Shown: positions 7,461-48,808, counted from the stretch's first letter. The stretch: DNA of 64,000 nucleotides from Eledone cirrhosa (GCA_964016885.1 CAXHJY010000424.1:1-64000); one strand, 5' to 3'. Program-made: numbers and translations. The notes: generated by a model from the sequence alone, not told the origin.

Positions 7461-10400
7461 ACAAATGTACCTATAATGGAGAGCAACATAAAGGAATGTT
7501 TCTAATTGATTGCAATATATGTGTATGTCGGGAAAATGGCAAAGCACTATGTACAAACAGACGATGCGACTACGGACAACGACCTACATGTTTGTATCAA
7601 GGTAAACGTTACACAGTAGGACAGGCATTCCAACAATCATGTAAAACATGTGTATGCAGATCCAATGGTCAAATGGAATGTAGTACAAAGGATTGTGCTA
7701 AACAATGTACATATAAAGGAAAGCAGTATCAAGTGGGTGAAGAATTTAAAGACAACTGTAACAAATGTAAATGTCTTTCTTCTGGCATCACTGAATGTAC
7801 AAATAATGTGTGCCAGTGTCAATATAAAGGTAATGTCCACAACCATGGACAGACCTTCAAAGATGGATGTAAGTCCTGTACTTGTCAAATTAGCGGAATA
7901 GTGCAGTGTAGCAACCAAGGATGTGAATGTTATCACAAGAACATTCGCTATCAAACAGGACAAACATTCTCAGATGATTGCAATACATGTGAATGTTTAA
8001 ATAACGGCAATGTGAATTGTAGTCAAAATCCATGTACATGTACCTACAAAAATATTGTTTATAGTTTCGGAAAACAATTCAAGGATGGCTGTAACAACTG
8101 TACTTGTCAACAAAATGGACAGGTCAAATGTACAAATAACCTTTGTTCATGTACATATAAAGGAGAGATCTATGCAGTTGGACAGAAATTTAATGACGAC
8201 TGTAACCAATGTGAATGTTTATCTAGTGGTACAGTGCAGTGTTCTAACAAGCCTTGTAAATGTTTTGAAAATGGAAGATCTTACCCCATTGGTGCTACAT
8301 TTAGCAAGGACTGCAATACATGCACATGTCAAATAGATGGTCGTATACAGTGTACAAACAACCCATGTACTTGCACCTACAACAATAGAGTTTATAATTT
8401 CGGACAACAATTCAATGATGACTGCAACACCTGCACTTGTCAACAAAATGGACAGGTCCAATGTACAAATAACCGTTGTCTATGTACATATAAAGGACAG
8501 GTTTATCAGATTAATCAGAGATTTAATGAAGAATGTAACCAATGTGTTTGTCAGTCAAATGGAGATGTTCAATGTACTAGTAACGTCTGTAAATGTACAT
8601 ACAACAACCAGGTCTATAATATTGGTACTACATTTAAACAGGACTGTAACAACTGTACCTGTCAACAAACTGGACAAGTCCAATGTACAAATAAGCAGTG
8701 TCAATGTATATATAAAGGACAGGTTTATCAAATTCGTCAAAGATTTAACGATGATTGTAACCAATGTGAATGTTTATCTAGTGGTACAGTGCAATGCTCT
8801 AACAAGCCATGTAAATGTTTTGAAAATGGAAGATCTTACTCCATTGGTGCTACATTTAGCAAGGACTGTAATACATGCACTTGTCAACAAAATGGACAGG
8901 TCCAATGTTCAAATAACCGTTGTCAATGTACATATAAAGGACAGGTTTATCAAATTAGTCAAAGATTTAATGAAGAATGTAACCAATGTGTTTGTCAGTC
9001 AAATGGAGATGTTCAATGTACCAGTAACGTCTGTAAATGTACATACAACAACCAGGTCTATAATATCGGGGCTACATTTAATCAGGACTGCAACACCTGT
9101 ACCTGTCAACAAACTGGACAGGTCCAATGTACAAATAAGCAGTGTCAATGTACATATAAAGGACAGGTTTATCAAATTGGTCAAAGATTTAATGAAGAAT
9201 GTAACCAATGTGTTTGTCAGTCAAATGGAGATGTTCAATGTACCAGTAACGTCTGTAAATGTACATACAACAACCAGGTCTATAATATTGGTACTACATT
9301 TAAACAGGACTGTAACAACTGTACCTGTCAACAAACTGGACAGGTCCAATGTACAAATAAGCAGTGTCAATGTACATATAAAGGACAGGTTTATCAAATT
9401 GGTCAAAGATTTAATGACGACTGTAACCAATGTGAATGTTTAAATAATGGCAATGTGAATTGTACACAAAACCCATGTAGATGTACCTACACAAATGTGG
9501 TTTATCGTATCGGAACTCAATTTATAGATGGCTGTAACAACTGCACTTGTCAACAAAATGGTCAGATCGAATGTAAAATTAACCCTTGTCAGTGTGCTTA
9601 TCACGGACAGATCTATCAAACTGGTCAAATATTTAATGATGATTGCAACCAATGTGAATGTTTATCAACTGGAACTGTGAATTGTACGAAAAAGACTTGT
9701 AAATGTATTTATAAAAATATGGTTTACAATTTCGGAGCACAGTTGAAAGACGACTGCAACAACTGCACATGTAAAGACAACGGAGTGGTTGAATGTACCA
9801 ATAGAATCTGTCAATGTACATATAAGGGTCAAATTTATCAGCAAGGTCAAATATTTAATGATGATTGTAACCAATGTATATGCATGGCTGGTAAAATTGT
9901 GCAATGTAGCAGACACCAATGTACATGTACCTACAAAAATATCATTTACAAAGTAGGTGCACAGTTCAAAGATGGGTGCAATAGCTGTAATTGCAAAACA
10001 AACGGAAAAGTTGAATGTACAGAAGGTCAATGTCAATGTACATATAAAGGACAGATCTATGTAGTTGGCCAGAAATTTAATGACAGCTGTAACCAATGTG
10101 AATGTTTAAATAACGGCAATGTGAATTGTAGTCAAAACCCATGTAAATGTATTTACAACAACCAGGTTTATAATATAGGAGCGCAATTCATGGTCGGCTG
10201 TAACAACTGCACCTGTCAACAAAATGGACAAGTCCTATGTAAAAATAAACAGTGTCAATGTACATATAAAGGACAAGTTTATCAAATTGGTCAAAGATTT
10301 AACGTTGATTGTAACCAATGTGTTTGTCAGTCAAATGGAGATGTTCAATGTACCAGTAACGTCTGTAAATGTACATACAACAACCAGATCTATAATATCG

Positions 10401-13400
10401 GGGATACATTTAAACAGGACTGCAACACCTGTACCTGTCAACAAAATGGACAGGTCCAATGTACAAATAAGCAATGTCAATGTACATATAAAGGACAGGT
10501 TTATCAAATTGGTCAAAAATTTAATGACGACTGTAACCAATGTGTTTGTCAGTCAAATGGAGATGTTCAATGTACCAGTAACGTCTGTAAATGTACATAC
10601 AACAACCAGATCTATAATATTGGGGCTTCATTTAATCAGGACTGCAACACATGTACCTGTCAACAAAATGGACAAGTCCAATGTACAAATAAGCAGTGTC
10701 AATGTACACATAAAGGACAGGTTTATCAAATTGGTCAAAAATTTAATGATGATTGTAACCAATGTGAATGTTTATCTAGTGTTACAGTGCAGTGTTCTAA
10801 CAAGCCATGTAAATGTTTTGAAAATGGAAGATCTTACCCCATTGGTGCTACATTTAGCAAGGACTGCAATACATGCACATGTCAAATAGATGGTCGTATA
10901 CAGTGTACAAACAACCCATGTACTTGTATCTACAAAAATAGAGTTTATAATTTCGAACAACAATTCAAGGATGGCTGTAACAACTGCACTTGTCAACAAA
11001 ATGGACAAGTACAATGTTCCAGTAACCCATGTCAATGTACATATAAAGGACAGGTTTATCAAATTGGTCAAACATTTAATGACGACTGTAACCAATGTGT
11101 TTGTCAGTCAAATGGAGATGTTCAATGTACCAGTAACGTCTGTAAATGTACATACAACAACCAGATCTATAATATTGGGGCTTCATTTAATCAGGACTGC
11201 AACACATGTACCTGTCAACAAAATGGACAAGTCCAATGTACAAATAAGCAGTGTCAATGTACACATAAAGGACAGGTTTATCAAATTGGTCAAAAATTTA
11301 ATGATGATTGTAACCAATGTGAATGTTTATCTAGTGTTACAGTGCAGTGTTCTAACAAGCCATGTAAATGTTTTGAAAATGGAAGATCTTACCCCATTGG
11401 TGCTACATTTAGCAAGGACTGCAATACATGCACATGTCAAATAGATGGTCGTATACAGTGTACAAACAACCCATGTACTTGTATCTACAAAAATAGAGTT
11501 TATAATTTCGAACAACAATTCAAGGATGGCTGTAACAACTGCACTTGTCAACAAAATGGACAAGTACAATGTTCCAGTAACCCATGTCAATGTACATATA
11601 AAGGACAGGTTTATCAAATTGGTCAAAAATTTAATGACGACTGTAACCAATGTGTTTGTCAGTCAAATGGAGATGTTCAATGTACCAGTAACGTCTGTAA
11701 ATGTACATACAACAACCAGATCTATAATATCGGGGCTACATTTAAACAGGACTGTAACAACTGTACCTGTCAACAAAATGGACAAGTGCAATGTACAAAT
11801 AAGCAGTGTCAATGTACATATAAAGGACAGGTTTATCAAATTGGTCAAAAATTTAATGACGATTGTAACCAATGTGAATGTTTATCTAATTGTACAGTGC
11901 AATGTTCTAACAAGGCATGTCAATGTTTTGCAAATGGAAGATCTTACCCCATTGGTGCTACATTTAGCAAGGACTGCAATACATGCATATGTCAAATAGA
12001 TGGTCGTATAAAGTGTACAAACAACCCATGTACCTGTACCTACAACAATAAAGTTTATAATTTCGGACAACAATTCAAGGATGGTTGTAACAACTGCACT
12101 TGTCAACAAAATGGACAAGTACAATGTTCCAGTAACCCATGTCAATGTACATATAAAGGACAGGTTTATCAAACTGGTCAAACCTTTAAAGAAGAATGTA
12201 ACCAATGTGTTTGTCAGTCAAATGGAGATGTTCAATGTACCAGTAACGTCTGTAAATGTACATACAACAACCAGATCTATAATATCGGGGCTACATTTAA
12301 ACAGGACTGTAACAACTGTACCTGTCAACAAAATGGACAAGTGCAATGTACAAATAAGCAGTGTCAATGTACATATAAAGGACAGGTTTATCAAATTGGT
12401 CAAAAATTTAATGACGATTGTAACCAATGTGAATGTTTATCTAATTGTACAGTGCAATGTTCTAACAAGGCATGTCAATGTTTTGCAAATGGAAGATCTT
12501 ACCCCATTGGTGCTACATTTAGCAAGGACTGCAATACATGCATATGTCAAATAGATGGTCGTATAAAGTGTACAAACAACCCATGTACCTGTACCTACAA
12601 CAATAAAGTTTATAATTTCGGACAACAATTCAAGGATGGTTGTAACAACTGCACTTGTCAACAAAATGGACAAGTACAATGTTCCAGTAACCCATGTCAG
12701 TGTACATATAAAGGACAGGTTTATCAAACTCGTCAAACCTTTAATGAAGAATGTAACCAATGTGTTTGTCAGTCAAATGGAGATGTTCAATGTACCAGTA
12801 ACGTCTGTAAATGTATATACAACAACCAGGTCTATAATATCGGGGCTTCATTTAATCAGGACTGCAACACCTGTACTTGTCAACAAAATGGACAAGTCCA
12901 ATGTAGTAGTAACGTCTGTAAATGTACATATAAGAACCAGGTCTATAATATCGGGGCTTCATTCAAACAGGGCTGTAACAACTGTACCTGTCAACAGAAT
13001 GGACAGGTCCAATGTACAAATAAGCAGTGTCAATGTACATATAAAGGACAGGTTTATCAAATTCGTCAAAGATTTAACGATGATTGTAACCAATGTGAAT
13101 GTTTATCTAGTGGTACAGTGCAATGTTCTAACAAGCCATGTAAATGTTTTGAAAATGGAAGATCTTACCCCATTGGTGCTACATTTAGCAAGGACTGCAA
13201 CACCTGCACTTGTCAACAAACTGGACAGGTCGAATGTACAAATAAGCAGTGTCAATGTACATATAAAGGACATGTTTATCAAATTGGCCAAGCTTTTGTT
13301 GATAGATGTGAGAAATGTAATTGTTCGTCTGGTGGTTTCTTTAAATGTTTTAACTCATCATGTTCCTGTACACATAACGGAATATCATATGAAGCAGGGC

Positions 13401-13834
13401 AATCTTTTCAATACGGTTGTTACACCTGCAACTGTAGCCTTAGCGGTGCTGTCAGCTGTACCAAGGACCAGTGTTTGTCATGCACTTACAAAAATAAGCG
13501 TTATAATAACGGTGATGTTTTCTATGATGCCTGCAATAAGTGTAACTGTTCTGTTGATGGGACTGTGGACTGTGAGAAGAAACAATGTCCAGCTAATTGC
13601 ACGCATAAAGGAAAACAGTATTCCATCGGTGAAACATTTAAAGATTTATGCAATTCTTGTATTTGTGGACAGTTTGGCATTGTAGCCTGTACAAAGAAAG
13701 CTTGCACTCAGTCGTGCCAGTATTATGGAAAATTCTACAAAAACGGAGAAATGTTTATTTCACGAGACAGATGCAATATTTGTGTGTGTGCGTTTGGTTA
13801 CACCCATTGTACTAAGCGTGTTTGTTATTCTTAG
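7461..13834 (+). CDS. Gene A giant coding exon: 57 tandem 37-aa six-Cys pacifastin/VWC-like modules (kielin/chordin-like-type annotation expected); 5' exon not found in window
   Basis: Acceptor ctcttttcAG ends at 7460. Phase-1 start (x)AC-AAA-TGT-ACC reads KCTYNGEQHKG into the 2112-aa ORF. Module consensus CxYxGxxYxxGxxFxxxCNxCxCxxxGxVxCTxxxC. Stop TAG 13832-13834 is immediately followed by donor GTAAGC. Confidence 0.9.
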
Positions 13835-14384
13835 GTAAGCAGTATATATTTTTTGACCTATTGTATTTATTTCAGTTAGTAGTTGTTACATACAATAGAC
13901 ATGTGCAATTAATTACTTTGCAGTATTGAATTTATTTTCTGGTTATAAATATAATATCGCCAATACCGCGTTTCTTTAAAAATGTAAATTAAATAACCAT
14001 TATGAAACACACGAAACTGAATTTACTGTGAAAAGATATATCCGAGAAGATTAAGCAAGGAAGTATTTATTAGAATATACCCTATTCTGCTGGGTCCGAA
14101 GTTGCTTTCATCTCTCCGGAGTCAATAAAATTAAATACTTATCACACATTGAGTTAAATCCAATAGACCTCTCATAAATACAGTATACACGAAAATCTAT
14201 TGACTTTAAAGTTTCCATAATATCAACATCGACGTAGTTTTATATAGCAAATTTTAAATAATTAAATATTTCCATTATAATATTTACAACTTAATGAAAC
14301 TATATTTATTCACATACTCTATAATATAATATAATTGTTTCTACTCTATAATATAATATAATATAATATAATTTTTACTTACAG

Positions 14385-14520
14385 AATGAATGGTACCAAA
14401 TGAAGAACATTTTTTCATGTCGTAATTTCTTAAATTTAATTAAAACACTTTTTTTTTTTTCATTCATGTATATACCATCATATCAATTTATTTAAATTTA
14501 AATATATTAAATAAAAAAAT
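14385..14520 (+). other. Probable non-coding terminal (3' UTR) exon of gene A
   Basis: Acceptor tttttacttacAG ends at 14384, about 550 bp after the donor at 13835, similar to the 544-bp last intron of gene B. ATTAAA at 14439 and AATAAA at 14510. Confidence 0.55.
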
Positions 14521-15877
14521 ATATATTTTCGAAATATTTGTTTTTATCGTATTCTTTACACAAAGTTTGACTGAATATATTTTTGAAACATACAAAGGAA
14601 TCTGTATGAACCTGTCACTCACTTTCTCACTCGCTCGGTTCCTTAACCCCACCTGAAGCAAAGGCCACCGACGATCTTCTTCCACATATCCCTGTAGTGA
14701 GCCTTCATCTCCAGTTCACCATCTTCATCTTTTCAATTTTCGTTTATGAATCTTTGTATATACGCATGGAACCATAGCTCCTGGTGGAGTTGTAGGGGCG
14801 CTGCAGTGACATAAGCAAATCTTGGATATTTTAAAAAACATATCGGAGCCCATCCCCTTTTCAGGCCCGAACATGGCCATTTCTTCTAGAGAAGGAAAGA
14901 CAGAGTGGTAGAGAGGGAATTAGAAAGAGATATAGAGGAAGAATCGAGCCTATGGACTGCTACTTTATTATCGACATCGAAAGGATGAAAGACAAAGTTG
15001 AGCTCGGCGGAATTTGAACTCAAAACGCAGAGAGTTAGAACAAATACCCCAAAGCATTCTTTATGAACCCTTACTTCACTATAAAATATATTTTATTGAC
15101 CCACAGCACTCTTTAACAAATTGATGGACTATTTTGTCATTTCTGTAAAACTTACCGAGAAGAAACAGATATAGTTTACATCTGGATTAACTCACAAACA
15201 CTAAATATTTTACAGCATTCATTTACATAACACTTTCTTTATAACCAAAGCTTATTTTATTATAAAATTAGATTTAATAAAAGGAGAGAAATATTATAGG
15301 AACATTTATAGCAAGATATCATTTAAAAATAATCTATGGCAGACATTTCTTTAAAAAGTAGCGTTTAAGTCCATCACCAACAGCAGTAGTAAACCAGCGA
15401 GAGCCGTTCAATCTGTTTGAAATAACAGCCAAATTCTCCTCAGATCACATAATACCATTCTAAGAATAGAAAAGACTCACTGAATAAGGTAATCCTTGTT
15501 ATATATTACATCTGAATAAAGGTCATGATGTTCACGATTATAATGTGTTCAATCTTGACGGACTTAGATAATGTGGCCCTAAATATATACAAATAAATGA
15601 GATAGTCAAACAAAGAATGCTTTCCGTCATTTGTTCTGCTCAATCACGGCTGACTTAGGGTTAAACAACAACAACAACGAAGTACCTTTCAAGGAAATGT
15701 TTTGTGAACCTTTTAACAAGGCTACATGAGTGAGAGTTAGCATCCTGTGCATGTCTAGTAAGACATCCAGACGGTAGCATTGTCAAGTAACAACTGAAAT
15801 ATTCAAATACATTAAGCTATTTAGTTTTGTTTCACTGTTTAGTCAAGGAAGGAAGGGCAATATCCACGACAGCTTTC

Positions 15878-16270
15878 AGGGCTTCTAGACTGTTGGTGAT
15901 AAGAAGGGAGGGACATACCCTCAAACCGGAATCAAGGCTTCCTAGATTGTTGGTGATAGGAAAGGAGGGACATACCCTCAAACCAGAATCAGGGCCTCCT
16001 AGATTGTTGGTGATAAGAAGGGAGGGACATACCCTCAAGTCGGAATCAGGGCTTCCTCGGCAGTTGGTGATAGGAGGGGGGATATACCCTCAAGCTGGAA
16101 TCAGGGTTTCCTCGGCTGTTGGTGATAGGAGGAGGGGAACATACGCTCAAACCAGAATTAGGGCCTCCAGACTGTTGGTAATTGGAAGGGAGGGACGTAT
16201 CCTCAAACCGGAATCAGGGCTTCCTATACTTTTGGTGATAGGAAGGTAGGAACGTATCCCCAAACCGGAA
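15878..16270. repeat. 57-bp minisatellite, about 7 copies
   Basis: Unit like cagggcttcctagattgttggtgataggaagggagggacataccctcaaaccggaat; period 15914, 15971, 16028. Confidence 0.9.
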
Positions 16271-16977
16271 ATCTAGTCCGAATGCTTGCAGCAGAGTGGA
16301 CTCTGCTAAAAGCATTTAAGTACAACAGATTAAGTCTACCATCATAAATAGATCACCACGGGGTTTGAACTTATAGCGCAAAGAACCGGAACAAATGAGA
16401 TCAGCCCGGTGTTCTAACAATTCAGCCAATTCACTTTCAAAGATGAAGTTTTCGATCAACATCTTCAACTGATACTTTATTTGTCGACCTCGGTAGTCAG
16501 TTAAAGGCCGAGATGACTTTGGCAGGGTTTGTGAGACAAGTGATAAATGTATTCTGTCTTAGTAAGAAATGTTTACCGTTACCATGAACGACACCGTGAA
16601 TCTCCAGGATCGTATATTTGCTGCAGGGTAGAGCAATGTACCACCTTTCACCATCTATCTTAGCGATCCAAAACTTCCTACATTTATACAGATTTCAACT
16701 TGCCCAGCGGTTCGATAATTTATAAAAACTTGTTTAGATCCACACTCTTCAGTATAGTTCCCTAAATTTGACGGAATCTTTGATCAGTTGCCATTTAGCA
16801 TAATGGTTAGAACATTCGCCCGGAGTTCTAGAGATACGGAATTCAATTCTCCGTAGCTCTTGCTGAACACTGAATATTATTAAGTTGCAGTAATGCACTG
16901 GGTAATTGCTGGCCTTGTGCCGAAAGTAGAAACAATTATTAAGTTGCATATTTGTACAAATAGTGATAATAATAATA

Positions 16978-17151
16978 ATTGTTTCTACTTTTGGCACAAG
17001 GCCAGCAAATTACCCAGTGGTACTTTATTTTATCGACCCCGTAAGGATGAAAGACAAAGTTAACCTCGGCGGGATTTGAACTCAGTCCGTAAAGGGACGT
17101 AACTATGCTGCAAAGCATAGCGTCCGACCCTCTACTGATACTGCCAATCCT
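16978..17151 (-). mobile_element. SINE copy
   Basis: Reverse complement of the SINE family. Confidence 0.85.
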
Positions 17152-17775
17152 CTGACAACTATATAATGCAGACCAAGCAACCACATAGAAACACCCAAAT
17201 CAGCTAGCCCTGGAGGACTTCCACGAAGATAATCGGATAAATGGAACCATTCAGGTGTCAAACTAAATTCTTTACATTCCCCTGAATCTGGAAGTTTCTG
17301 CTGAAGATAGAATAAGAATTCCAGTAGCTCTGAATCCCTTTTTGTGGCAACATTTCTCCATTCCCTTAAATCTGAAATTTCTGCTAGCGATGAAATTAGT
17401 ATCTCAATAACTCTTAATTTTCTTTGTCTTGTCGCAAAAAAAACAAGGTCAATGTTGACGGTTTCTTCTAAGAAAAAATACCAAGATAGATATTTTTAGA
17501 AGCAATCACCCCCTCCCCCCTCCCGGTCAACTCTAAGGTCACCCGGCCTTTCAAACCAATCCCAGCTGGAACTTATATCCACTCCTCAAAAGACCTCTCA
17601 CAGCAGTCTGTTAACACCTCTCCTTCTTCTCCTCGCCGCTCCTTCCTCTACTCTCTCCTACTACCTGTCAGAACCAAGCTATAAGCAGAGTAGACTGAAC
17701 AGAGAAATGAACTCTCTTCTCCGAATGAACATGTATGTGAAAATTAATTTTTCTTTTATTTTCATTTTCATCATG

Positions 17776-32035: not shown

Positions 32036-35000
32036 TGTTATACTTGGGGAGGGTCATATTGTTGTAATATTGCCAGAAATAATAACAGAACACACTCACT
32101 GTTTGGTTGGTTTTCGCTTCTGTATCTTTTAAATCTCCATAGTTAATTTATTTGTCAATCAATGTTTATCATTGATTGACCAACAGTTAAAAATACAGAT
32201 ATAAATATATATATATATATAGTCTATCAAAGTTCTTTCGTTACACATCTGCAACATCAGTGATACTATTATGTTTCCTCCTGTTGTATTATGTCTACGC
32301 CATTTATATTTTTATTTATTTATTTATTTATTTATTTATATCTTCTTGTCTCTGACTCTGCGCATGCGTTTGCATGTGTGTAAAGTGTTTGGTGTGTGCG
32401 TTCGCGTTTGAGTGTATGTGTTTTTGTTTTTGTATTTTTTTGTTTTTGTTTTTGTATCTTTGTTCACTAGTGTGTGTTTATATGCATTTGTTGTTATTGT
32501 ACGTGTGTATATATTTATTGTGTATATATTAATTTATTTATTTATATTTCCCTTAAGTCAGTATTGTTTGTTTGGGTATGGTTGTTGTTGTTATTCCATT
32601 CGTTTTTGTCTGTTTAGCTTCGGTCTTCTAAGTTGTATCTCAGTAGCTTCTCTGATTTGCCTACCTATAGAGTTACTTCTATGCTTAGATATTATTTTAA
32701 TTTCTATGTTGTCTATATTACCGTCATGTCTTTGTCTGGCATGTTCGTATAGTACTGAACCGTTTTTTTGTCCTTTTAGTTCCCCACCAGTGTTGGTCTA
32801 TTCTTTTTCCTATGCTACGAGCTGTCCCATCTATATATGTCGTTGTCATGTTTCTACAAGTACGCTCTGTACATCTTATGCTATAGACTACTTTTCTAGT
32901 TTTACAGTTTATCTGGGGGTTCATTTTACATATAATACATTTCTTATTTGTACAGTGGGTTTTCTTAAAGGGATTATCAGGGATTTTATGGTAGTTCCTG
33001 GGTTTTCTACTACTTTAATCTTTAAATGGGTCTTTCTCAGGGCCTTTCTACATTGGTTAGCTAATTTCCCTCCAGGGGTAGCATCCACGAACATGACACT
33101 CTAGTATCTCTGGTTGTCGTACCATGAAGTGGCTTTCCCTATATATGTTTAGTCCTATCTAAGCTATTCCATGATTTGCTCCTGTATAATGGGCAAATTT
33201 CTTTCATGTCCAGTTCTATGAGGGTCTTATATTTCTCCATGGCTCCTTTGTATACACTGATTTTGTCTCTTTGGTTGTAGCCAGAGAACTGCATGCGATT
33301 GATGAATTGTTGGATATGTCTTTCCATTTCAGTTGGGTCGCACATGCCGAACACATTCATCATCAGTCTTACGAAGTCTGTGATCAGAATATTAAACTTA
33401 GCACTATTGGACATTGCTGAGTTTTTGAGTATCGGGTATTTGGAGGCCATTGGTGTAACATAGTGTGAGTGGAGAATTTGGGCCCTCTCGTCTATAGTGT
33501 TTATCCAGAGTTCCGTGTCTAATACAGGTAGTCTATTGTTAGGGTGTTTGGAAGGGTAGTCAACAGTTTCAGTTATACTCTGGTGTATGGAGTTAGCTAT
33601 CAGCTGGATGCTCTCCATTGTGCTATTTTCTAATTTATGTTTATTAGTACTCTCGGGGGGGGGGGGGGGGGGGGGGGGTTATTATTACTATATCAATATT
33701 GTCTACGTAACGAGAGTACATGACTAGGTCTATGGAGTTCTCTTCAAGGAGTTCTCTGAGTCTCCTCTCCCACCATACTATAAATAGATTGGCAACGTAC
33801 CCAGCTATGCTGACGCCAATGGCTGCTCCCTCATTCTGGGTGTAGATCTTTTCGTTAAATTTAAACATATGCCCCTTTAGGGTAGTTTTAATACGAGCCC
33901 CTATTGCATGTGTGACCATTTTTCTCACCTGATCGTGGTTTTGGGGTGTCCGTATGACTTTGGTCCATCCATTCCATCTTCCCATGAGAGTGTTTTTAGC
34001 CATTGAGGTGGGGGTAGGGGTCTACCTCTTATTGGCCTACTGGAGCAGAAACAGCTAAGGTCATGGTTATCTAGCTACTCGGTGTCATAAGTAAGTCCAA
34101 GTACGAGGCTGAGTTCATTTGTGTCGACGTCGCAGAACTCCACTTCGCTTTCACTGATTATTTCCACACATTTTTCCACAGCAAAATCAATGTTAACGGA
34201 TGGGTACAGTGATACCACGTCCATACTGCCCATTATGCAGTTAGTTAAGTTTTTGTTCATATTGTATTCAATGATCCTGCTGAGGAGGTCCTCTGTGCTG
34301 TCACATATATCCGGGGACATTTTAATTATGGGGCGTATAACCATTGAGAGGAAGTAGGAGATCCTGTAGTTGCTAGCAATATTGGCTCCGCATACAGGTC
34401 TTGTTGGTGGTCCTGTCGTCGGGTCGTCGGTTGTCTTATGCTCTTTGCGGAGCCCATACAAGGGTGGTATGTCGTTGTTAGACGCTTGAAAGTTGTTGGC
34501 AGTGCGTCTGCCTGGCTTTAGGAAGTCTGTCCACATCATCATGTGAGCGTTGAGGATCTTCTCTCTCTCCTCATGTGTTTGTTGTGTTGTTTCACTCGTG
34601 TTGGTGATGTGGGTTGCATAGCCTTGATATTGTTCAGCACGCTGTCTATTGACATCCTACCAGATTTATCTGTGGCTAGACACACTACCTCACCATCCCT
34701 TGTGCGCTGCTTGAGGCTAAGTAGGCCTTCTACAGGTTTCCTTCCAAGTTGTTGAATTTCTGGTCTGCTTTGTCTCTTAGTATATTGGTCTACTACATAT
34801 CTAAGTTTATTTCTAGCTAAGGTAAACTATGCCTCTAATTCGTCATCTATTTGTTATGGTATACAAACTCTTTTATTAGAAGGTAACCTAGTGGGATACA
34901 TTTTGTTCATCTTGTATGTTTTGTTAGCTGGATTGAAGAACAGGTTCTCTAAGGGGTTGTCATTAAATCTACCGTTATATTGTGTGTACATTATTGTCAT

Positions 35001-38110: not shown

Positions 38111-38124
<14 letters not shown>

Positions 38125-39649
38125 GGCTGGTGTGAATGTGTCATGTTAGGAAATAAAATGTAAGAAGAAAGAATTTCCTTAACTAGAAAAATGGTCTGAT
38201 TTACACATGGATAAAAACGTGCTTAAAATATATCTTTTTCCTCTTAAGTGTGAGTCCATTATCGTTACGCTAAGAAGTGACTGAAATTCATTTTTATGAT
38301 GCTACACAATTTGGAGCCAAAAAGTAGCCAGATGTAAAGAAACCTTATACATTATATGGAGCGTTGGCAGTGTTTGAAATTTGAAACTTTGTAAATATGA
38401 ATACATACAATTTGATCAACACAAATCGGACATGTTTAACGAAGACGATTGGCTGCTTTTTAAAAGAATTTGTTAAGAGATTTAACTAATGGGAATAATG
38501 AATAAAAGGTTAAGTTTTTATTTTTGTCCCGTATAGTATATTATCACCAAATTGCCATTCTGAGTTCAAATCCCGCTGAGGTTAACTTTGTCTTTCATCC
38601 TTACGGGGTCGATAAAATAAAGTACCAGTAATGCACTGAGTAATTGCTGGCCTTGTGCCAAAAGTAGAAACAATTATTACTTTTCTATGAATATAATAAT
38701 GCAATGTTTACCAGACCGGTCAACTCGACAGGAAGATAACCCACACACTTTGGGGTGGGTAAAACATGTCTTCTCTTGTGAAAATGTGTATAGCTTTCAT
38801 TATGTCAAAATCTCCCCATCTTGCCTCATTTCTCCTCGTTTTGTGGCACTTTTTTAATGGTACTCCCCGTTTGGGATTTTAAAGGTTGGCAGGTCTGGCT
38901 TACAGAATGAAAATATAAACACAATATATATATGTGAAAATATAAACACGTATAATAAATATAATTAATTATTGCGATGAACCTTACTTTATTATAGTTT
39001 AGATAATATCGTTGATAAGGCACAAAAATATATATAATCAAAGAGAGAGAAAACCCCATCAATTCACCACTAAATGCGTCAATCGGTCACACATCACAAG
39101 GGTCATCGGAACTTTTTTTAGGCAAGCCATCACGCTGGCAACATTACTGCTGGCGAGGGCGAGGCTAAGGTGCTACAACAACTAGGCACCCTCACCTTCA
39201 CAGGCATCAGCTGACACTTCGGTAGGGCGAGCTGCTAATGATGATAAGAACTTCGCTGTCAGTGGCCCAGCTTCATCAAACGTTTCCTACGTAGTATATA
39301 ATATACTATATAGTATAGAGTGTATAATATAGTATGTAGTTTTAAACATATATATATTTATTCTGCGACAAGTAACCACTGATGTTAATTCATTATAATA
39401 AAACATTCGTTCCGTCCGTCCTACAGTGACGACGAAATTTAAGTTGACGATGACGAAATTAAAACTGATGATGACGAGATCGAGATTAACGATAATAAGA
39501 ATAAGGATGATGTTGACGGTTTTGAGGGGAAACGCTAAATGTTGTCTATATAAGAGATTTTTATTCACAGTTCTATAAATAACATTACAAATGAGTAAAT
39601 AACATTATAAATTGTTCGCAATTCGTTCAAAAGAACATTACAAATACTG

Positions 39650-40395
39650 CTAACATGTGTAGTGTGTATATTGATATTATACGCAGGTATATATACATGT
39701 AGATATGATGCATCAAATAAAATCGAAAATGACAATATATAATACATAGTACATAATACAATTGAACGGAGACTGTGTTACACTGCTTTATTTAATCAGT
39801 AACGTAATCCATGATACATTAAAAGAAGACGATATTATACATAAACTGCGGTGGATTGGCAGTATCGGTAGAGGGTCGGACGCCATGCTTTGACGCATAG
39901 AGTTACGGCCCTTGCCATTCTGAGTTCAAATCCCGCCGAGGTTAACTTTGCCTTTCATCCTTACGGGGTCGATAAAATAAAGTACCAGTAATGCGCTGGG
40001 TAATTGCTGGCCTTCTGCCAAAAAGTAGAAACAATTACTATATATAAACTGCATTAGGAGAAAATTAGTGACAGAAAATGAGTATGTTTATTTAAGCGAT
40101 GGCCAACCGGAAGTGTTGACATTTCAGAAATTTTAAAGAAGGGAATCTTTAAATAAACAAAATATATTTAATCAACAGCCACGAAATTTAGTAGATAAAT
40201 TATGTAATATTCATTTGCCTTTCATCCTTACGGGGTCGATAAAATAAAGTACCAGTAATGTACTGGATAATTGATGGCCTTGTGCCTAAAGTAGAAACAA
40301 TTATTTATTCAAAGTAATCCAACTTATTTTACTAATGGGATAAAAAATTATAAACCGTACGCAGTCCCGCGCGCCTTACTTTATTATAGTTTAGA
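39650..40395 (-). mobile_element. Second Helitron-like copy carrying two younger SINE insertions (39849-40036, 40215-40302)
   Basis: Colinear with 27060-27510 once the SINEs are removed; TSD ATAAACTGC flanks the first SINE. Confidence 0.6.
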
Positions 40396-40509
40396 TAATG
40401 TCGTTGATAAACACAAATATAAGCGCAAAAAAAAGAAACAGAAAAAGAAAGAAAAAGAAAAAGGCGGGGGCCAAAAAGATAAACGACTATCAATTCAGCA
40501 CCAAGTGAG

Positions 40510-40880
40510 AAATTACCCCAGTGCATTACTGGTGCATTATTTTATTGACCCCGTAAAGATGAAAGACAAAGTTAACTTCAGCGGGATTTGAACTCAGACC
40601 GTAAAGGGCCATAGCTCTATGCTTCAAAGCATGGCGTCCGACCCTCTACCGATGCTATCAATCCACTGCCCTTTGTATCTATTGTAATAAATAATTGTTT
40701 CTACTATTGGCACACGGACAGCAATTACCCAGTGTATTACTGGTACTTTATTTTATCGACCCCGTAAGGATGAAAGGCAAAGTTTACCTCGGCGGGATTT
40801 GAACTCAGAATGGCAAGGGCCGTAACTCTATGCGTCAAAGAATGGCGTCCGACCCTCTACCGATACTGCCAATCCACCGG
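40510..40880 (-). mobile_element. Two tandem SINE copies
   Basis: Reverse complement of the SINE family, twice. Confidence 0.85.
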
Positions 40881-41124
40881 CTTTGTAATAAATATTGTAA
40901 TAAATTGTAATAAATAATATATGTTGATTATTCACTATTGTAATATGTTGATTATTTACAGGTGTAATGTATAGAATATATGTCTGCCTATATAGTATGG
41001 TTATAAACACTTTAAGTTGTCCGTTTACAATTGTAATGTATATAATATATGTAATTTATCGAAATATGTTAGTATGTATGAAAAATTATTCCTTCGAAGA
41101 GGTAAGATAGTGAAGAAAAGAGTA

Positions 41125-41470
41125 AGATATTTCACTGGACACTGTCCTTATAAATATATATAGTATGGTAGTGAGATAATTCACTGGACACTGTCCTTAT
41201 AAATATATATCGTATCATAGTGGGATATTTCACTGGACACTGTCCTTATAAATATATATAGTATGGTAGTGAGATAATTCACTGGACACTGTCCTTATAA
41301 ATATATATCGTATCATAGTGGGATATTTCACTGGACACTGTCCTTATAAATATATATAGTATGGTATTGAGATAATTCACTGGACACTGTCCTTATAAAT
41401 ATATATCGTATCATAGTGGGATATTTCACTGGACACTGTCCATATAAATATATATCGTAAGATATTGTGA
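41125..41470. repeat. 49-bp minisatellite, 7 copies of two alternating variants, upstream of gene B promoter
   Basis: ttcactggacactgtccttataaatatata followed alternately by tagtatggtagtgagataa or tcgtatcatagtgggatat. Confidence 0.95.
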
Positions 41471-41998
41471 TATATCGGGCGTTAATGTGATTCGCGTAAT
41501 AAAATATATATAAATTTGAGAGTCAGGACTGATGGTAAGGCAAAGTCAAGGCTGGTGTGAATGTGTCATGTTAGGAAATAAAACGTAAGAAAGAATTTCC
41601 TTAACTAGAAAAATGTCTGATTAACACATGGAAAAAAAACGTGCTTAACGTTAGGAAGTGAAATTTTCATGTCCGGAATCATTTACAATTTATTCTCGTG
41701 AATTGTATAAAGATCTGTTTGTAGTAATTTGTATATGTAGTATCAATAAAGATGGTTTAAAGAAATACTTTACTAATAAATTCACTGTTTCTTTACACAT
41801 TATCAAACATGTGATTAAATTTGTGATTATTGAACTAATTTGTGAAACGTTTCTGATATCATTGTTATAACTGCAAGAAAAGTGCTCCACCTGGGAAAGT
41901 TGCCATTTTAAGATATGAAATTAGGAAAAGCTATTAAACTAAATCATTTTATTTCTTCAATTAATTAATTTATGCAGGTGATCACGTTTATTATAGGG

Positions 41999-42007
41999 TA
42001 TATAAAG
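41999..42007 (+). promoter_or_regulatory. TATA box of gene B
   Basis: TATATAAAG about 100 bp upstream of a strong Kozak-context ATG (ACCACCATG, ATG at 42107). Confidence 0.6.
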
Positions 42008-42106
42008 CGTCCTTCTAAGACATTTGTCAAACCTGTCCTTGTTTCGAAGAAGATAACAACCATCACCATTCTACAACAGGAAAATAAGATAAACCAATTG
42101 ACCACC

Positions 42107-42167
42107 ATGTTGTACCAATTGCTACTAATATTAGCAGCATTTTCATTCGTAAACAGCTACAACAACT
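42107..42167 (+). CDS. Gene B exon 1: signal peptide MLYQLLLILAAFSFVNSYNN
   Basis: Kozak ACCACCATG, hydrophobic core and a VNS-Y cleavage-like site. Phase-1 donor GTAAGT at 42168 matches the phase-1 acceptor at 45655 (T+AC = Tyr). Confidence 0.85.
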
Positions 42168-43271
42168 GTAAGTAATTCATATTGCTATATATTGTATATT
42201 TGTTGATGTTTTAAATTAGTTTAGTTGAATTTATCAATTGTACACAAGACGTGTCATAGCTCCAGTGTGACTCTATGAGAGTTGAAGTTTATTAGGACTT
42301 ACCTGTCCACTAAAATATCCCATGACACATTACAGTACCTAGATACATAGGTAATATCAAATATTCCGTATTGTGACACCAAGGAGACGAGAAGCCAATG
42401 ATCAACATGACAAACTTCTCTCTAGTGTTTCATGTTTAAATCTTATGTTATTTATATGGTCAGATGTATAAGGTACCAGTACGGCTTACATCTTCACATT
42501 GTTCACAGTTGTTGAAAAACAAAGTGTAAGGTCTTGTAAGCTCTATCGCGATTGATAGAGAAGTTATCGATCTATATATGTGATCAGTTACATCTAATTG
42601 TTCTTTAGGATGGTGAATTGACAGAGTCGATAGAACATCGGACACAATACTTTGTGGTATTTGTCGTGACTCTTTCCATTCAAATTTCACACCTCATTGT
42701 GGTAAAGTTTGTCTTCCATAATCTAGTGGGGTGTATCCACTCTCAAAGTTCACACTTTATTGTGGTAAAGTTTGTCTTCCATAATCTAGTGTGGTGTATA
42801 GATAGATTTGTTAGAACATCTGATGAGATGTGATATTTCTTACGGTTATTTGCCTTCTATAGTGTCTTCAGTGATGGACTTAATACGTAATCCAGCTTAA
42901 CACTACCGCTTTGGTTGTTTTTTTTTTACCTTTAACGTATTTCACTCTCCTGCAAACGTTCAAGAGAAATCTCTAGTTGGGAGGTAATTTTCTCTTGTTT
43001 TTACACCATTTTCGAAGCGACAGAAAATTAAAGGACCGCGAACGTTAGGTTTCCTTCTTTAACTAATGTGCTTAAAAAAATGTGTTGTTCTTCTTTGGGA
43101 AAAAGTTTAATCATGATATTATTAAAAGTAAAGGTCAAATCTACAAATTAGGGATTTGTATTGTAAAAATGTAATATATACTTAAGTAAAATTTTGTATA
43201 TATATATATATTGTTTTATTTGTTTTGTTTTCTATGATTTTAAATTTAAATGATTATTGTGGTAGACGTAA

Positions 43272-43620
43272 GGGCGGTGGATTGGCAGTATCGGTAGAGG
43301 GTCGGACGCCATGCTTTGACGCATAGAGTTACGGGGTCGATAAAATAAAGTACCAATAATGCACTGGGTAATTGCTGGCCTTGTGCCAAAAGTAGAAACA
43401 ATTATTATTATTGTGGATTGGCAGAATCGGTAGAGAGTCGGACGCCATGCTTTCCAGTATAGTTACGTCCCTTTACGGTCTGAGTTCAAATCCCGCCGAG
43501 GTTAACTTTGCCTTTCATCCTTACGAGGTCGATAAAATAAAGCACCAGTCATGCACTGAAGCCTATTTAATCGACTTTCCCCTCCCCTTCAAATAACTGG
43601 CCTTGTGCCTATACGAGAAA
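43272..43620 (+). mobile_element. Two SINE copies in gene B intron 1 (first internally deleted)
   Basis: The first copy jumps gttacgg|ggtcga (deletion at a ttacgg microhomology); the second is full length. Confidence 0.8.
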
Positions 43621-43760
43621 TCATTATTGTGGTAGACGTAGTATTTCGGTAGGAAGGTCGTATTATGGTCAATGAAAACAAAATTCATTTTCGGATTAAA
43701 AGTATCTCTGAGCGAACTTGCGTCCTCACGAATAAATATCAAATATTTTCCGGCAACGCG

Positions 43761-45086
<1,326 letters not shown>

Positions 45087-45354
45087 AGATGTGTGTGTCA
45101 GATGTGAAACTACAGCTAAAGGTTGCACGCCTTTCGAACCACTCAATGCTGCTACAAAATCCGTCATGTTTAGGTTGTATTCCAGAGTTAAGGCGGTTGT
45201 AGTGCGCAGTGTGTAAATATTCGCATAACTGACGAGATGTCGAATGAGTCGAAGCCCGTTATCTTTATTTTACCCAAAGCTGATCGATATCGATGCCAGT
45301 AACATTTTTACATATGATGCAACACTTACATCGAATCTACTTAATCTCACCCCC

Positions 45355-45387
<33 letters not shown>

Positions 45388-45655
45388 AATATACATATGA
45401 TATACATATGCGTGTGTGTGTATTATTGTTAATTTAAATTGTTAAATTCCGCTAGACACACATCTTTTGTGGATATCTTAATTTCTTACGTATAATAGAA
45501 TATAGATATACAAGGTATTATTAAATGCAAGTATCTCCCTACATACAGGAAATTAAAATCAATAGCTTAATATCTTATGTACAATAGAATATATACCATA
45601 TTGATATTACAGTGTTAGATATAAATATAATTATTGATCATATGATTTTTTACAG

Positions 45656-48249
45656 ACGAATGTACACATAATGGTAAACAATATAACGGAGCATTTAAAA
45701 TCGACTGCAATACATGTGTGTGTACTGAAACGGGCCAAGCACTGTGTACAAGCAAAAGTTGTGGCTATGGACAGCGACGTACATGTTGGTATCAAGGTAA
45801 ACGTTACGCTGTAGGACAGACATCTCAACAATCATGTAATAAATGTGTATGTAAAGCCAATGGTCAAATGGAATGTACGAATAATGTGTGCCAGTGTCAA
45901 TATAAAGGTAATGTCCACAACCATGGACAGACCTTCAAAGATGGATGTAAGTCTTGTACTTGTCAAATTAGCGGAACAGTGCAGTGTAGCAATCAAGGAT
46001 GTGAATGTTATCACAAGAACATTCGCTATCAAACCGGACAAACATTCTCTGATGAATGCAATACATGTGAATGTTTAAGTGATGGAACAGTTAAATGTAC
46101 TCAGAAAATGTGTAAATGTTACTACAGAGGAAAGATATTTAATGTAGGAGAGAAAATTGAAGAAGATTGCAATACTTGCTATTGTCGAGGTAATGGTCAA
46201 GTAGATTGTACAAAGAATACGTGTCAGTGTACATATAAAGGACAGGTTTATCAAATTCGTCAAAGATTTAATGCAGAATGTAACCAATGTGTTTGTCAGT
46301 CAAATGGAAATGTTCAATGTACCGACGAAATTTGTAAATGTACATACAACAACCAGATCTATAATATCGGGGCTTCATTTAATCAGGACTGTAACACATG
46401 CACCTGTCAACAAAATGGACAAGTCCAATGTACAAATAAGCAGTGTCAATGTACATATAAAGGACAGGTTTATCAAATTAGTCAAAGATTTAATGAAGAA
46501 TGTAACCAATGTGTTTGTCAGTCAAATGGAGTTGTTCAATGTACCAGTGACGTCTGTAAATGTACACACAACAACCAGATCTATAATATCGGGGCTTCAT
46601 TTAATCAGGATTGCAACACCTGTACGTGTCAACAAAATGGACAAGTCCAATGTACAAATAAGCAGTGTCAATGTACATATAAAGGACAGGTTTATCAAAT
46701 TCGTCAAAAGTTTAATGAAGATTGTAACCAATGTGAATGTTTATCTAGTGGTACAGTGCAGTGCTCTAACAAGCCATGTAAATGTTTTGAAAATGGAAGA
46801 TCTTACACCATTGGTGCTACATTTAGCAAGGACTGCAACACCTGTACCTGTCAACAAAATGGACAGGTCCAATGTACATATAAGCAATGTCAATGTACAT
46901 ATAAAGGACAGGTTTATCAAATTAGTCAAAGATTTAATGAAGAATGTAACCAATGTGTTTGTCAGTCAAATGGAGATGTTCAATGTACCAGTAACGTCTG
47001 TAAATGTACATACAACAACCAGATCTATAATATCGGGGCTTCATTTAATCAGGACTGTAACACTTGTACCTGTCAACAAAATGGACAGGTCCAATGTACA
47101 TATAAGCAATGTCAATGTACATATAAAGGACAGGTTTATCAAATTAATCAAAGATTTAATGAAGAATGTAACCAATGTGTTTGTCAGTCAAATGGAAATG
47201 TTCAATGTACCGACAATGTTTGTAAATGTACATACAACAACCAGATCTATAATATTGGTACTACATTTAAACAGGACTGTAACACCTGTACCTGTCAACA
47301 AAATAGACAGGTCCAATGTACAAATAAGCAGTGTCAATGTACATATAAAGGACAGGTTTATCAAATTCGTCAAAAGTTTAATGAAGATTGTAACCAGTGT
47401 GAATGTTTATCTAGTGGTACTGTGCACTGTTCTAACAAACCATGTAAATGTTTTGAAAATGGAAGATCTTACCCCATTGGTGCTACATTTAACAAGGACT
47501 GCAATACATGCACATGTCAAATAGATGGTCGTATAAAGTGTACAAGCAACCCATGTACCTGTACCTACAAAAATAGAGTTTATAATTTCGGACAACAATT
47601 CAGTGAGGACTGCAACACCTGCACTTGTCAACAAAATGGACAAGTCCAATGTTCAAATAATCGTTGTCAATGTACATATAAAGGACAGGTTTATCAAATT
47701 AGTCAAAGATTTAATGAAGAATGTAACCAATGTGTTTGTCAGTCAAATGGAGATGTTCAATGCACCAGTAACGTCTGTAAATGTACATACAACAACCAAA
47801 TCTATAATATTGGTACTACATTTAAACAGGGCTGTAACACTTGTACCTGTCAACAAAATGGTGTAGTAAGCTGTACTAAAATGCGATGTTCTTGTACATA
47901 CAATGGTAAACGTTATGATGTTGGTTCTGTATTCTTCAATGATTGCAATAAATGTCAGTGCCATGATGATGGAAGAGTCCAATGTGAACAGAAAAAATGC
48001 CCCAAACCATGCCTATTCAATGGAAAAACCTATTCCGTCGGAGAATCATTTAAAAAGGACTGCAATACATGTACATGTGGACAGTTTGGTCAAGTAGCAT
48101 GTACTAAAATGTACTGTCCTAAATCGAAATGTGAACTTAAAGGAAAAGTTTTCGAAGCCAACCAAACATTTATGTCTGAAGATAAATGCAATGTGTGCCG
48201 GTGTACAGACGGGAAAATCAAGTGTACCAACTATGACTGTGATGATAAG
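45656..48249 (+). CDS. Gene B exon 2: 23 tandem six-Cys pacifastin/VWC-like modules, paralog of gene A
   Basis: Acceptor tttttttacAG at 45655. Reads ECTHNGKQYNGAFKIDCNTCVC into the 850-aa ORF. Phase-0 donor AAG|GTTAGT at 48250. Same module consensus and many near-identical modules to gene A. Confidence 0.9.
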
Positions 48250-48793
48250 GTTAGTAATTTGTTTTATTAGTTTTCTTAGTATCTCAAATGTAATAAATTT
48301 AATCTATTTTGCTTTCCATTGATTTTATTATGTATAATAATAAGAATAACTTAAAGCTGATTAATATTTAGCATAAGGCTTGGGTTGTCATCGATCTACG
48401 GTTTTCATGCAACCAGCAAAATCCTGTCAGCATCTGTTTCAATTCACACTTGGATTATTTCCCTTTATTTACTCGAATATCTTTAAATTTAAAAATCCTG
48501 TGTTTTGTAAATATGAATACTATTAGTAATTAATATGAAAGTAAATAATTAACCTAGAGTATTAGATACATATCGATTTACGTGTCAGAATATATTTCAA
48601 GAAGATTGAATAAAGATTTTAGTCGTTGGGCCAGGTGAATTAATTATCATTAAAATAGATTTATATATATAGATATAATCTGTTATAGTGTATAAATCTG
48701 AACTTGCTCCACGTCATATGTATTCAGTATATAATTCATTTAATATAACAGTTGATAAATATCCTAATACCTTGTAAATCTGTTTCATTGTAG

Positions 48794-48808
48794 ATACGGC
48801 GATACTGA
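48794..48808 (+). CDS. Gene B exon 3 (IRRY-stop); spliced product 889 aa
   Basis: Acceptor tttcattgtAG at 48793, then ATA CGG CGA TAC TGA; AATAAA at 48873-48878. The unspliced alternative ends VSNLFY* at 48270. Confidence 0.65.
   Translation: MRRY

What the first reader, a model, noticed from the sequence alone, without database searches (positions are those of the whole stretch)
7461..48808. Tandem pair of giant single-exon poly-pacifastin/VWC-like secreted proteins (57 and 23 modules)
Seen: two same-strand paralogs about 28 kb apart. Each is essentially a continuous chain of 37-aa six-Cys modules, mostly joined by a single residue (C-x-C), all within one exon (6.4 kb and 2.6 kb). Gene B has a signal peptide; neither has a TM segment or other domain. 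Known: CNxCxCxxxGxxxCTxxxC is the pacifastin (MEROPS I19) core and also matches the N-terminal half of VWC. Characterised arthropod pacifastin precursors have far fewer domains, often split by dibasic sites, and pacifastin-like transcripts have been reported from coleoid posterior salivary glands. Inference: dibasic processing linkers are absent, so these are probably uncleaved Cys/Gln/Asn-rich rods. They are candidates for an undescribed cephalopod secreted material (mucus, egg capsule, adhesive, venom scaffold) or a multivalent inhibitor.
Basis: partly seen in the sequence, partly recalled or inferred. Interest (0 to 1): 0.8.

Follow-up and report, generated by a model that had tools for sequence, protein, structure and literature searches.

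The report
Octopod disulfide bead-chain matrix protein family
An octopus-type genome holds about two dozen related genes whose products are chains of 8 to 59 tiny disulfide-locked beads, which likely lost their ancestral protease-blocking role, likely serve as a secreted structural scaffold, and may be the same family as the main insoluble proteins of the paper nautilus's shell-like eggcase.

Summary
In detail: two stop-free exons carry 57 and 23 six-cysteine, 37-residue modules. They are not single-exon genes. B has a signal exon, one giant module exon and a tiny last exon, and its last intron is spliced out in one public run. A's first exon was not found. They are also not just a pair: the genome holds 27 such loci with 8-59 modules, and paralogs swap modules. 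The modules are ancestral-type pacifastin/half-VWC units with a predicted fibronectin-type-I-like fold. The inhibitory P1 position is mostly Asn or Ser (308 of 374 tightly linked modules), whereas two other pacifastin arrays in this genome keep inhibitor-like loops. Best reading: uncleaved, length-variable structural chains of a secreted matrix. A lead from the literature: the top insoluble proteins of the argonaut eggcase are clustered VWC-only 'kielin-like' genes numbered near GLG1, and GLG1 lies 2.65 Mb from this family's main array here. No argonaut sequence was seen and the synteny controls were inconclusive. Tissue and function are untested. The scan had no look-alike stretch on other DNA.

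The parts
7461..13834 (+). Gene A module exon: 57 six-Cys modules (about 238 kDa), phase-1 acceptor at the start, stop codon as the last codon directly before a GT donor; two modules carry an extra Cys; 25 N-glycosylation sequons; recent 555-bp (5-module) duplications up to 99.8% alike
14385..14560 (+). Candidate non-coding last exon of gene A (acceptor 550 bases after the donor; the end coordinate is arbitrary); splicing not shown
   Evidence: sequence; inference by analogy with gene B
41996..42009 (+). TATA-like element of gene B; the promoter plus signal exon is found full-length 23 times in the genome at 83-100% identity
42107..42167 (+). Gene B exon 1, coding part: 20 codons with a hydrophobic signal-peptide-like core, phase-1 donor at 42168
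   Evidence: signal peptide judged from hydropathy, no SignalP run
45656..48249 (+). Gene B module exon: 23 six-Cys modules (about 98 kDa), phase-1 acceptor, phase-0 donor at 48250
   Evidence: depth 1,000-34,000 in run X1 against 13-60 in unique intron bins
48794..48808 (+). Gene B last coding exon (four codons and stop; AATAAA near 48873)
   Evidence: GT..AG joint across intron 48250-48793 at depth 6410 in run X1 and absent from X2-X4

Best explanation
These are two members of an expanded octopod gene family encoding chains of 37-residue six-cysteine modules, which are likely secreted uncleaved and likely act as the fibrous, insoluble scaffold of an epithelial secretion rather than as protease inhibitors. 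Shown: the three-exon layout of B, 8-59 modules per gene, one-residue linkers, Asn/Ser at the P1 position, exchange of modules between paralogs, and a spliced B-type sequence in one run. Predicted: each module folds as a beta-hairpin on a three-stranded sheet, like fibronectin type I. Inferred: three disulfides per module and no free Cys in B make a protease- and seawater-resistant bead chain; abutting modules crowd the old reactive loop; chains would pack side by side through exposed strand edges and would be fixed by cross-links using the abundant Gln/Lys or Tyr; unequal crossing-over inside the single giant exon sets chain length without disturbing splicing. Inferred from gene order only: this is the family annotated 'kielin/chordin-like' that dominates the insoluble matrix of the argonaut eggcase.
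For: Anatomy. P1 is Asn in 233 and Ser in 75 of 374 tightly linked modules of 23 intact genes, K/R/L/M/F/Y in 34. In two other pacifastin arrays of this genome P1 is Asn in 0 of 30 sampled modules, and K/R in 16 of 18 in the C2 array. P1 shows no excess of amino-acid change (pN/pS 0.60; non-Cys mean 0.53). Fold: pLDDT 84, 2+3 strands per module; best structural matches are fibronectin type I pairs, Z 7.1, rmsd 7.1 over 72 residues. Run X1 holds the exact GT..AG joint of intron 2. Argonaut: VWC-only 'kielin/chordin-like' proteins are called the most abundant eggcase matrix proteins (bioRxiv 2021.07.10.451900 section 13). Six such gene models of 47-138 kDa are listed, three clustered (Aargo009082, 009083, 009090) with insoluble-fraction scores 9891, 3825 and 5981; Aargo009172 is GLG1 (PMC9635652 Table S5). 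I predicted before searching that GLG1 would lie near this family. It lies at C1:220.40-220.44 Mb, 2.65 Mb from the 14-copy array and 13-14 Mb from the C1:206.8-207.7 copies; 0.75% of the genome lies that close to a placed family locus, 3.3% within 15 Mb. No other VWC- or pacifastin-scoring locus was listed on C1 206-221 Mb.
Against: No tissue, protein or assay data for this genome. No argonaut sequence was seen, so orthology rests on gene numbering. Controls did not confirm that logic: EF1-alpha (Aargo009281, about 195 numbers away) is on C4; calsyntenin is on C22 while cytoplasmic TrpRS, 37 numbers away, is on an unplaced contig; ATP synthase beta on C7 did not place XP_029641298.1, the top hit of five of the six argonaut models. 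No annotated Octopus protein with this tight architecture turned up, although O. sinensis XP_029635552.1 would be expected to be one if the synteny reading is right. One search scored only 150 of 1253 candidates. pTM 0.35 gives no support for a stiff rod, and Z under 8 may mean only a common arrangement. The penultimate module keeps a K-M loop in 14 of 23 genes, so one inhibitory head is possible. The chains are neutral to slightly basic (pI 7.4-8.6), unlike acidic mineral-nucleating proteins (recalled). The exon 1-exon 2 joint was not among the 15 joints shown, and an X1 contig runs unbroken across that boundary.
Confidence: 0.6

Rival explanations
1. Multivalent serine-protease inhibitor: many pacifastin-like heads on one chain guard a secretion (saliva, ink, mucus) against proteases, or a long spacer presents one or a few active end modules.
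For: Pfam Pacifastin_I is the best profile. Solved pacifastins align with one module at rmsd about 2 over 32-35 residues, Z 2.4-2.8. The penultimate module has K-M in 14 of 23 genes and the last four modules of A have Lys at P1. Pacifastins are reported from octopus posterior salivary gland (PMC7693380, passages). PMC13388995 lists N-Q and Q-K pairs among arthropod-type domains.
Against: P1 is K/R/L/M/F/Y in 34 of 374 interior modules and Pro follows C6 in 1 of 374. The K of the penultimate module is lost in 8 of 23 genes. No excess change at P1. The genome has separate arrays with R-M, K-M and L-K loops and long linkers that fit the inhibitor role better.
Confidence: 0.17
2. Soluble or gel-forming adhesive or mucus component (egg-string cement, skin or sucker mucus) that binds collagen, chitin or mucins along its strand edges, rather than an insoluble scaffold.
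For: Fibronectin-type-I-like fold, with collagen-peptide complexes as top matches; sequence matches to the VWC-like units of MUC2, MUC5AC and VWF; A carries 25 N-glycosylation sequons.
Against: No Pro/Thr/Ser mucin blocks, VWD or cystine-knot domains in A or B. The cuttlefish egg-case SepECP motif is absent. A shared fold shows no function.
Confidence: 0.15
3. BMP-binding extracellular regulator, as the automatic name 'kielin/chordin-like' implies.
For: VWC profile matches; the best named database hits carry that name.
Against: Only the N-terminal half of VWC is matched; no CC or CCxxC in A or B. Full-length VWC genes lie elsewhere in the genome, for example C6:18.2 Mb. Two dozen length-variable, module-swapping copies are unlike a dosage-sensitive signalling gene (inference).
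Confidence: 0.04
4. For gene A alone: a 5'-truncated or silent relic kept open by conversion from active paralogs; more widely, part of the copy number reflects uncollapsed alleles on unplaced contigs.
For: No first exon for A found. Its stop sits where B-type genes have a sense codon before the donor. 27 of 55 standard A modules are at least 95% identical to B-type modules. C451, C440 and C157 are unplaced; 3 of 27 loci are broken or cut short.
Against: A keeps 57 of 57 six-Cys modules over 6.4 kb, including divergent end modules (57-71% to any paralog) that cannot have been refreshed. The contig begins 7.4 kb upstream, so exon 1 may lie beyond it. Placed copies on C1 differ in module number (8-18, and 37).
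Confidence: 0.12

Closest known systems
Ancestral-lineage pacifastin-like domains (PF05375; PMC13388995, results section and passages read)
   Same: Six-Cys scaffold, C1-C2 span of 13-20 residues (16 here), Asn after C2, Gly in the C4-C5 loop, few dibasic linkers in molluscs, proposed matrix association.
   Different: One-residue C-x-C linkage over runs of about 50 modules, up to 59 modules in one exon, P1 mostly Asn/Ser rather than Lys/Glu, and a family of two dozen genes. The paper's main text never mentions octopus or cephalopods.
Argonaut eggcase 'kielin/chordin-like' matrix proteins (Aargo009082/083/090, 000067/68, 007096; bioRxiv 2021.07.10.451900 sections 13, 14, 23 and passages; PMC9635652 passages and supplement part 1)
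   Same: Described as made only of VWC domains, many copies, clustered gene numbers, 47-138 kDa (this family: 35-249 kDa), numbered near GLG1.
   Different: This genome (3.0 Gb) is not the 1.1-1.3 Gb A. argo genome; whether its owner makes any mineralised secretion is unknown.
Octopus bimaculoides XP_052827939.1 and O. vulgaris CAI9730160.1 'kielin/chordin-like' poly-module proteins (P0063, P0116)
   Same: Chains of the same half-VWC module (25 in P0063); best named hits.
   Different: Linkers of 12-18 residues, 18-residue C1-C2 span, Lys/Glu at P1, many splice forms, 31% identity. The likely counterpart in this genome is at C2:306.6-306.8 Mb, not this family.
Fibronectin type I tandem modules and the RECK FnI module (PF25028)
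   Same: Predicted hairpin plus three-stranded sheet in tandem; best structural matches; FnI_RECK profile matches 39 stretches in A.
   Different: Three disulfides per module against two in fibronectin (recalled), shorter module, no other fibronectin domains; middling Z only.
Unnamed marine proteins P0001, P0002, P0123 and relatives; oyster XP_062577437.1
   Same: C-x-C-linked modules with Asn-rich loops.
   Different: At most 9 tightly linked modules in a row, different ends, about 40% identity; no name or function on record for the marine set.

Membership tests
Pacifastin-like domain, ancestral class (PF05375) | Six-Cys scaffold with C1-C2 span of 13-20 residues | tested here: met
   Span 16 in 460 of 513 parsed modules, 14 or 18 in the rest; definition from PMC13388995
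Pacifastin-like domain, ancestral class (PF05375) | Asn after C2 and Gly in the C4-C5 loop | tested here: met
   Asn 232 of 242, Gly 228 of 242 unique modules
Conventional arthropod pacifastin inhibitors (MEROPS I19) | Short C1-C2 loop of 9-12 residues | tested here: not met
   14-18 residues in all 513 parsed modules
Conventional arthropod pacifastin inhibitors (MEROPS I19) | Inhibitor-type P1 residue in C5-x-P1-P1'-x-C6 | tested here: not met
   K/R/L/M/F/Y in 34 of 374 tightly linked modules; kept in the penultimate module of 15 of 23 genes. The residue set is my choice, from recalled specificities
Conventional arthropod pacifastin inhibitors (MEROPS I19) | Dibasic processing sites between domains | tested here: not met
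   One RR in the first linker of 5 of 23 genes, none in other linkers
Conventional arthropod pacifastin inhibitors (MEROPS I19) | Measured protease inhibition | not testable with these tools
   Needs an assay
VWC domain (PF00093) / kielin-chordin (KCP) | Ten-Cys domain with the C-terminal CCxxC half | tested here: not met
   Best stretches match profile 1-44 of 57; no CC in A or B
Fibronectin type I-like fold | Two-stranded hairpin plus three-stranded antiparallel sheet | tested here: inconclusive
   Strand pattern fits; VIA Z 7.1, rmsd 7.1 over 72 residues for pairs, rmsd 1.4 over 36 for one module at Z 3.5; below the Z 8 that would stand out
Argonaut eggcase kielin-like matrix proteins | Sequence orthology | not testable with these tools
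   No argonaut or XP_029635552.1/XP_029641298.1 sequence could be fetched; preprint tables are images and its supplements are closed
Argonaut eggcase kielin-like matrix proteins | Linkage to GLG1 | tested here: met
   GLG1 2.65 Mb from the main array; argonaut linkage is inferred from gene numbers 82-90 apart, scaffold not given
Argonaut eggcase kielin-like matrix proteins | Gene numbers predict linkage in this genome (control pairs) | tested here: inconclusive
   EF1-alpha unlinked; calsyntenin/TrpRS not placeable; ATP synthase beta uninformative
Sepia egg case proteins (SepECP) | CX2GX2CCXGCC motif, no repeats | tested here: not met
   Motif absent

The most novel reading that the evidence does not exclude
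Octopods turned a protease-inhibitor-type domain into a structural polymer: the reactive site was lost, linkers shrank to one residue, and a single giant exon became a length dial (8-59 beads) shared between paralogs. This family is what the argonaut eggcase's dominant insoluble 'kielin-like' proteins really are, so the re-invented shell is built on a scaffold that already existed, and expanded, in another octopod lineage.
Probability: 0.5. Interest if true: 0.8.

Novelty: new variant of a known kind. Interest (0 to 1): 0.62.

Why it matters
How the argonaut re-evolved a shell-like eggcase is an old question. Its top insoluble matrix proteins carry only an automatic label, and the two papers read give them a few sentences or a table row while the discussion centres on Pif-like proteins, glypican and tyrosinase. 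If they are this family, the scaffold has a defined architecture and a traceable origin, and one alignment can test that. Apart from the argonaut link, a natural series of all-beta disulfide chains from 8 to 59 identical-length beads is a ready test of how chain length sets material properties, and a clear case of an inhibitor-type domain losing its reactive residue as it became a repeat.

Tried and rejected
No RNA holder listed among public runs; X1's kind is not on record and only contigs were laid, so level, tissue, strand and transcript ends are unknown. Expression of gene A remains unexamined. ESM Atlas gave no usable hit for B and only leads under 0.9 for the divergent paralog. A search among 100-319 aa proteins found nothing. 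No first exon of A by blastn or by a scan for hydrophobic ATG..GT exons. Matching argonaut masses to whole module numbers was rejected: with 4.2 kDa steps any mass fits. An O. vulgaris ink pacifastin peptide (PMC10142993, one passage) matches the C26 array and the divergent paralog equally (13 of 18), so it does not assign the published coleoid pacifastins. The link between one-residue linkers and Asn at P1 in database proteins (19 of 60 against 45 of 1354; 222 of 257 proteins after dropping 35 isoforms and cluster members) rests on one unnamed marine family (16) and one oyster protein (3), so it is three lineages, not a general rule. Zero amino-acid change at Cys columns is circular, as modules were picked by their Cys. 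Foldseek matches to solenoid repeats of bacterial proteins (TM about 0.1) were rejected as shape-only. Oudot et al. 2020 on the argonaut shell matrix (recalled) is not held. Nine paper searches ran; no listing or passage described this architecture in an octopod, but subscription papers and bioRxiv supplements were not visible and may hold the argonaut sequences.
Full report
1. Observation. Six-frame translation shows two long Cys-rich frames, 7421-13831 and 45646-48267. They carry 57 and 23 modules of the form C-x16-C-x2-C-x-C-x7-C-x4-C, with 344 and 138 Cys. In A 51 of 56 linkers and in B 19 of 22 are a single residue. Tandem Repeats Finder sees 111- and 222-base periods. Pfam gives Pacifastin_I, VWC (front part only) and FnI_RECK, and no other credible domain. 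There is no TM segment. This is far beyond chance.

2. Gene structure. Neither frame starts with Met. Both begin at a phase-1 acceptor (7461, 45656) and end at a phase-0 donor (13835, 48250). Upstream of B lie a TATA-like element (41996) and a 20-codon hydrophobic exon (42107-42167); downstream lies a four-codon last exon (48794-48808). Joined, these give an 889-aa frame with one terminal stop. In A the last codon before the donor is a stop, with a candidate acceptor 550 bases on. No first exon for A was found; the contig starts 7.4 kb upstream. So the modules sit in one giant exon of a three-exon gene.

3. Splicing. Four runs of one study hold the B stretch, none on record as RNA. Laid on 41800-49300, run X1 alone shows a GT..AG joint that removes exactly intron 48250-48793, at depth 6410. 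Its depth over the module exon is 1,000-34,000 against 13-60 in unique intron bins, while X2-X4 give 50-630 against 19-49. I read X1 as RNA, but this is inferred, only contigs were laid, and the contigs differ from the window by about 1-2%, so any B-type copy may be the source. The exon 1-2 joint was not among the 15 joints shown (2033 were not shown), and one X1 contig crosses that boundary unbroken.

4. Family. The promoter plus signal exon occurs full-length 23 times among 26 matches. Of 27 stretches fetched, 25 held module exons; with A and B that makes 27 loci: 24 with one open module exon, one frameshifted, one cut short, one broken. They fall into A (57 modules), seven B-type genes (21-59), seventeen C-type loci (8-18 in the intact ones; 14 in an array at C1:217.32-217.75 Mb) plus the cut-short B-like copy, and one divergent gene at C1:431 Mb. 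Copies on unplaced contigs may include alleles. A and B are 78% alike in the first two modules and 62% in the last three, yet 27 of 55 standard A modules are at least 95% identical to a B-type module, which points to module exchange between paralogs. Over 242 unique modules a rough spanning-tree count gives pN/pS 0.53 outside the Cys columns, so the coding is constrained.

5. Inhibitor or not. PMC13388995 (results and passages read) defines an ancestral pacifastin-like class with a 13-20 residue first loop, common in molluscs and poor in dibasic linkers, and places P1 second after C5. The modules meet that class. At P1, the 374 tightly linked modules of 23 intact genes have Asn 233, Ser 75, and K/R/L/M/F/Y 34. 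Two other arrays in this genome, one module per exon, have Asn in 0 of 30 sampled modules and mostly R-M, K-M or L-K loops, nearly all followed within two residues by Pro. P1 shows no excess change. Against this, the penultimate module keeps K-M in 14 of 23 genes, while 8 have lost the Lys.

6. Fold. A six-module model has pLDDT 84 and pTM 0.35, each module a hairpin plus three strands. Fibronectin type I pairs match best (Z 7.1, rmsd 7.1 over 72 residues); VWC domains and mucin units follow; solved pacifastins match one module at Z 2.4-2.8. Sequence matches in the PDB are weak, to MUC2 and pacifastins. The modules' relative orientation is not resolved, so 'rod' stays an inference.

7. Relatives elsewhere. 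Word-indexed searches gave 62 hits among 3838 candidates and 73 among 7988; the full profile search gave 1025, the best 150 listed. The best named hits are Octopus 'kielin/chordin-like' proteins with long linkers, whose likely counterpart here is on C2. Among 222 of 257 proteins kept after dropping isoforms, the longest run of one-residue-linked modules is 9 and the most modules 44. No annotated octopod protein with this architecture was found.

8. The argonaut lead. A preprint reports that the most abundant argonaut eggcase matrix proteins are 'kielin/chordin-like', made only of VWC domains. The genome paper's Table S5 lists six such models; Aargo009082, 009090 and 009083 have insoluble-fraction scores of 9891, 5981 and 3825 (first, second and fourth in that column), and Aargo009172 is GLG1. 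Table S4 shows numbers running along scaffolds. Their O. sinensis top hits XP_029635552.1 and XP_029635449.1 are also close in number. I predicted that GLG1 would lie near this family, then searched: it is at C1:220.40-220.44 Mb, 2.65 Mb from the main array. That closeness covers 0.75% of the genome, or 3.3% for a 15 Mb window. No other VWC- or pacifastin-scoring locus was listed there, though those searches are capped. Three controls did not confirm the numbering logic, and I saw no argonaut sequence. I put the orthology at about 0.6. A 2026 microscopy paper (PMC13103008, passages) describes crystals nucleating on organic sheets and microfibres, which such chains could form; that fit is inference.

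9. Mechanism, marked. Shown: gene layout, module counts, linkers, P1 residues, module exchange, one spliced joint. Predicted: FnI-like beads. Inferred: secretion, three disulfides per bead, no processing, side-by-side packing, Gln/Lys or Tyr cross-links (Gln about 13%, Lys 7%, Tyr 5%), length set by unequal crossing-over, and a role as matrix scaffold. Rivals are a multivalent or end-active inhibitor, a soluble adhesive or mucus binder, a BMP regulator, and, for A, a relic.

10. Verdict. Real and unusual; a new variant of a known domain class. Interest 0.62, rising to about 0.8 if one alignment confirms the eggcase link.

Noticed in passing
G000:C2:217.29-217.38 Mb (L048-L050, L054): A long array of one-module-per-exon pacifastin-like domains, many near-identical, with R-M loops: a candidate true multivalent trypsin-type inhibitor.
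   Followed up: partly
   Followed up: partly
G000:C2:306.57-306.81 Mb and C1469: Multi-exon half-VWC array, likely the counterpart of O. bimaculoides XP_052827939.1.
   Followed up: no
L046:503-2740 (G000:C1:431.09 Mb): Divergent 18-module paralog with mixed short and long linkers, two five-Cys modules and 14 N-glycosylation sequons; looks like an older state of the family. A further module exon lies just upstream.
   Followed up: partly
G000:C451:120.7-125.5 kb (L021): A third copy on the window's contig, B-type, on the opposite strand, with one partial module of two Cys.
   Followed up: partly
G000:C1:217.35-217.69 Mb: Near-identical triples of genes about 100 kb apart (L030/31/33, L036-38, L039-41): a recent segmental triplication or an assembly artefact.
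   Followed up: no
window 33142-34656 (-), 54434-55318, 58773-60248, 63693-63998: Broken reverse-transcriptase-like and GIY-YIG-like frames that look like Penelope-type elements (label recalled; only a weak GIY-YIG hit, E 0.0097).
   Followed up: partly
window 7015-7419, 41121-41473, 4547-6865: A 47-base tandem repeat (8.6 copies, 99% alike) ends 40 bases before A's acceptor; a 49-base repeat lies 0.5 kb before B's TATA element; a 2.3-kb TA-rich microsatellite lies upstream of A.
   Followed up: no
proteins P0001, P0002, P0123, P0145, P0159, P0162, P0176, P0195: An unnamed marine family of C-x-C-linked, Asn-loop modules, several sharing a similar C-terminus; independent or distantly related.
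   Followed up: partly
protein P0117: A Diplonema papillatum protein with 44 such modules in a three-module repeat.
   Followed up: no
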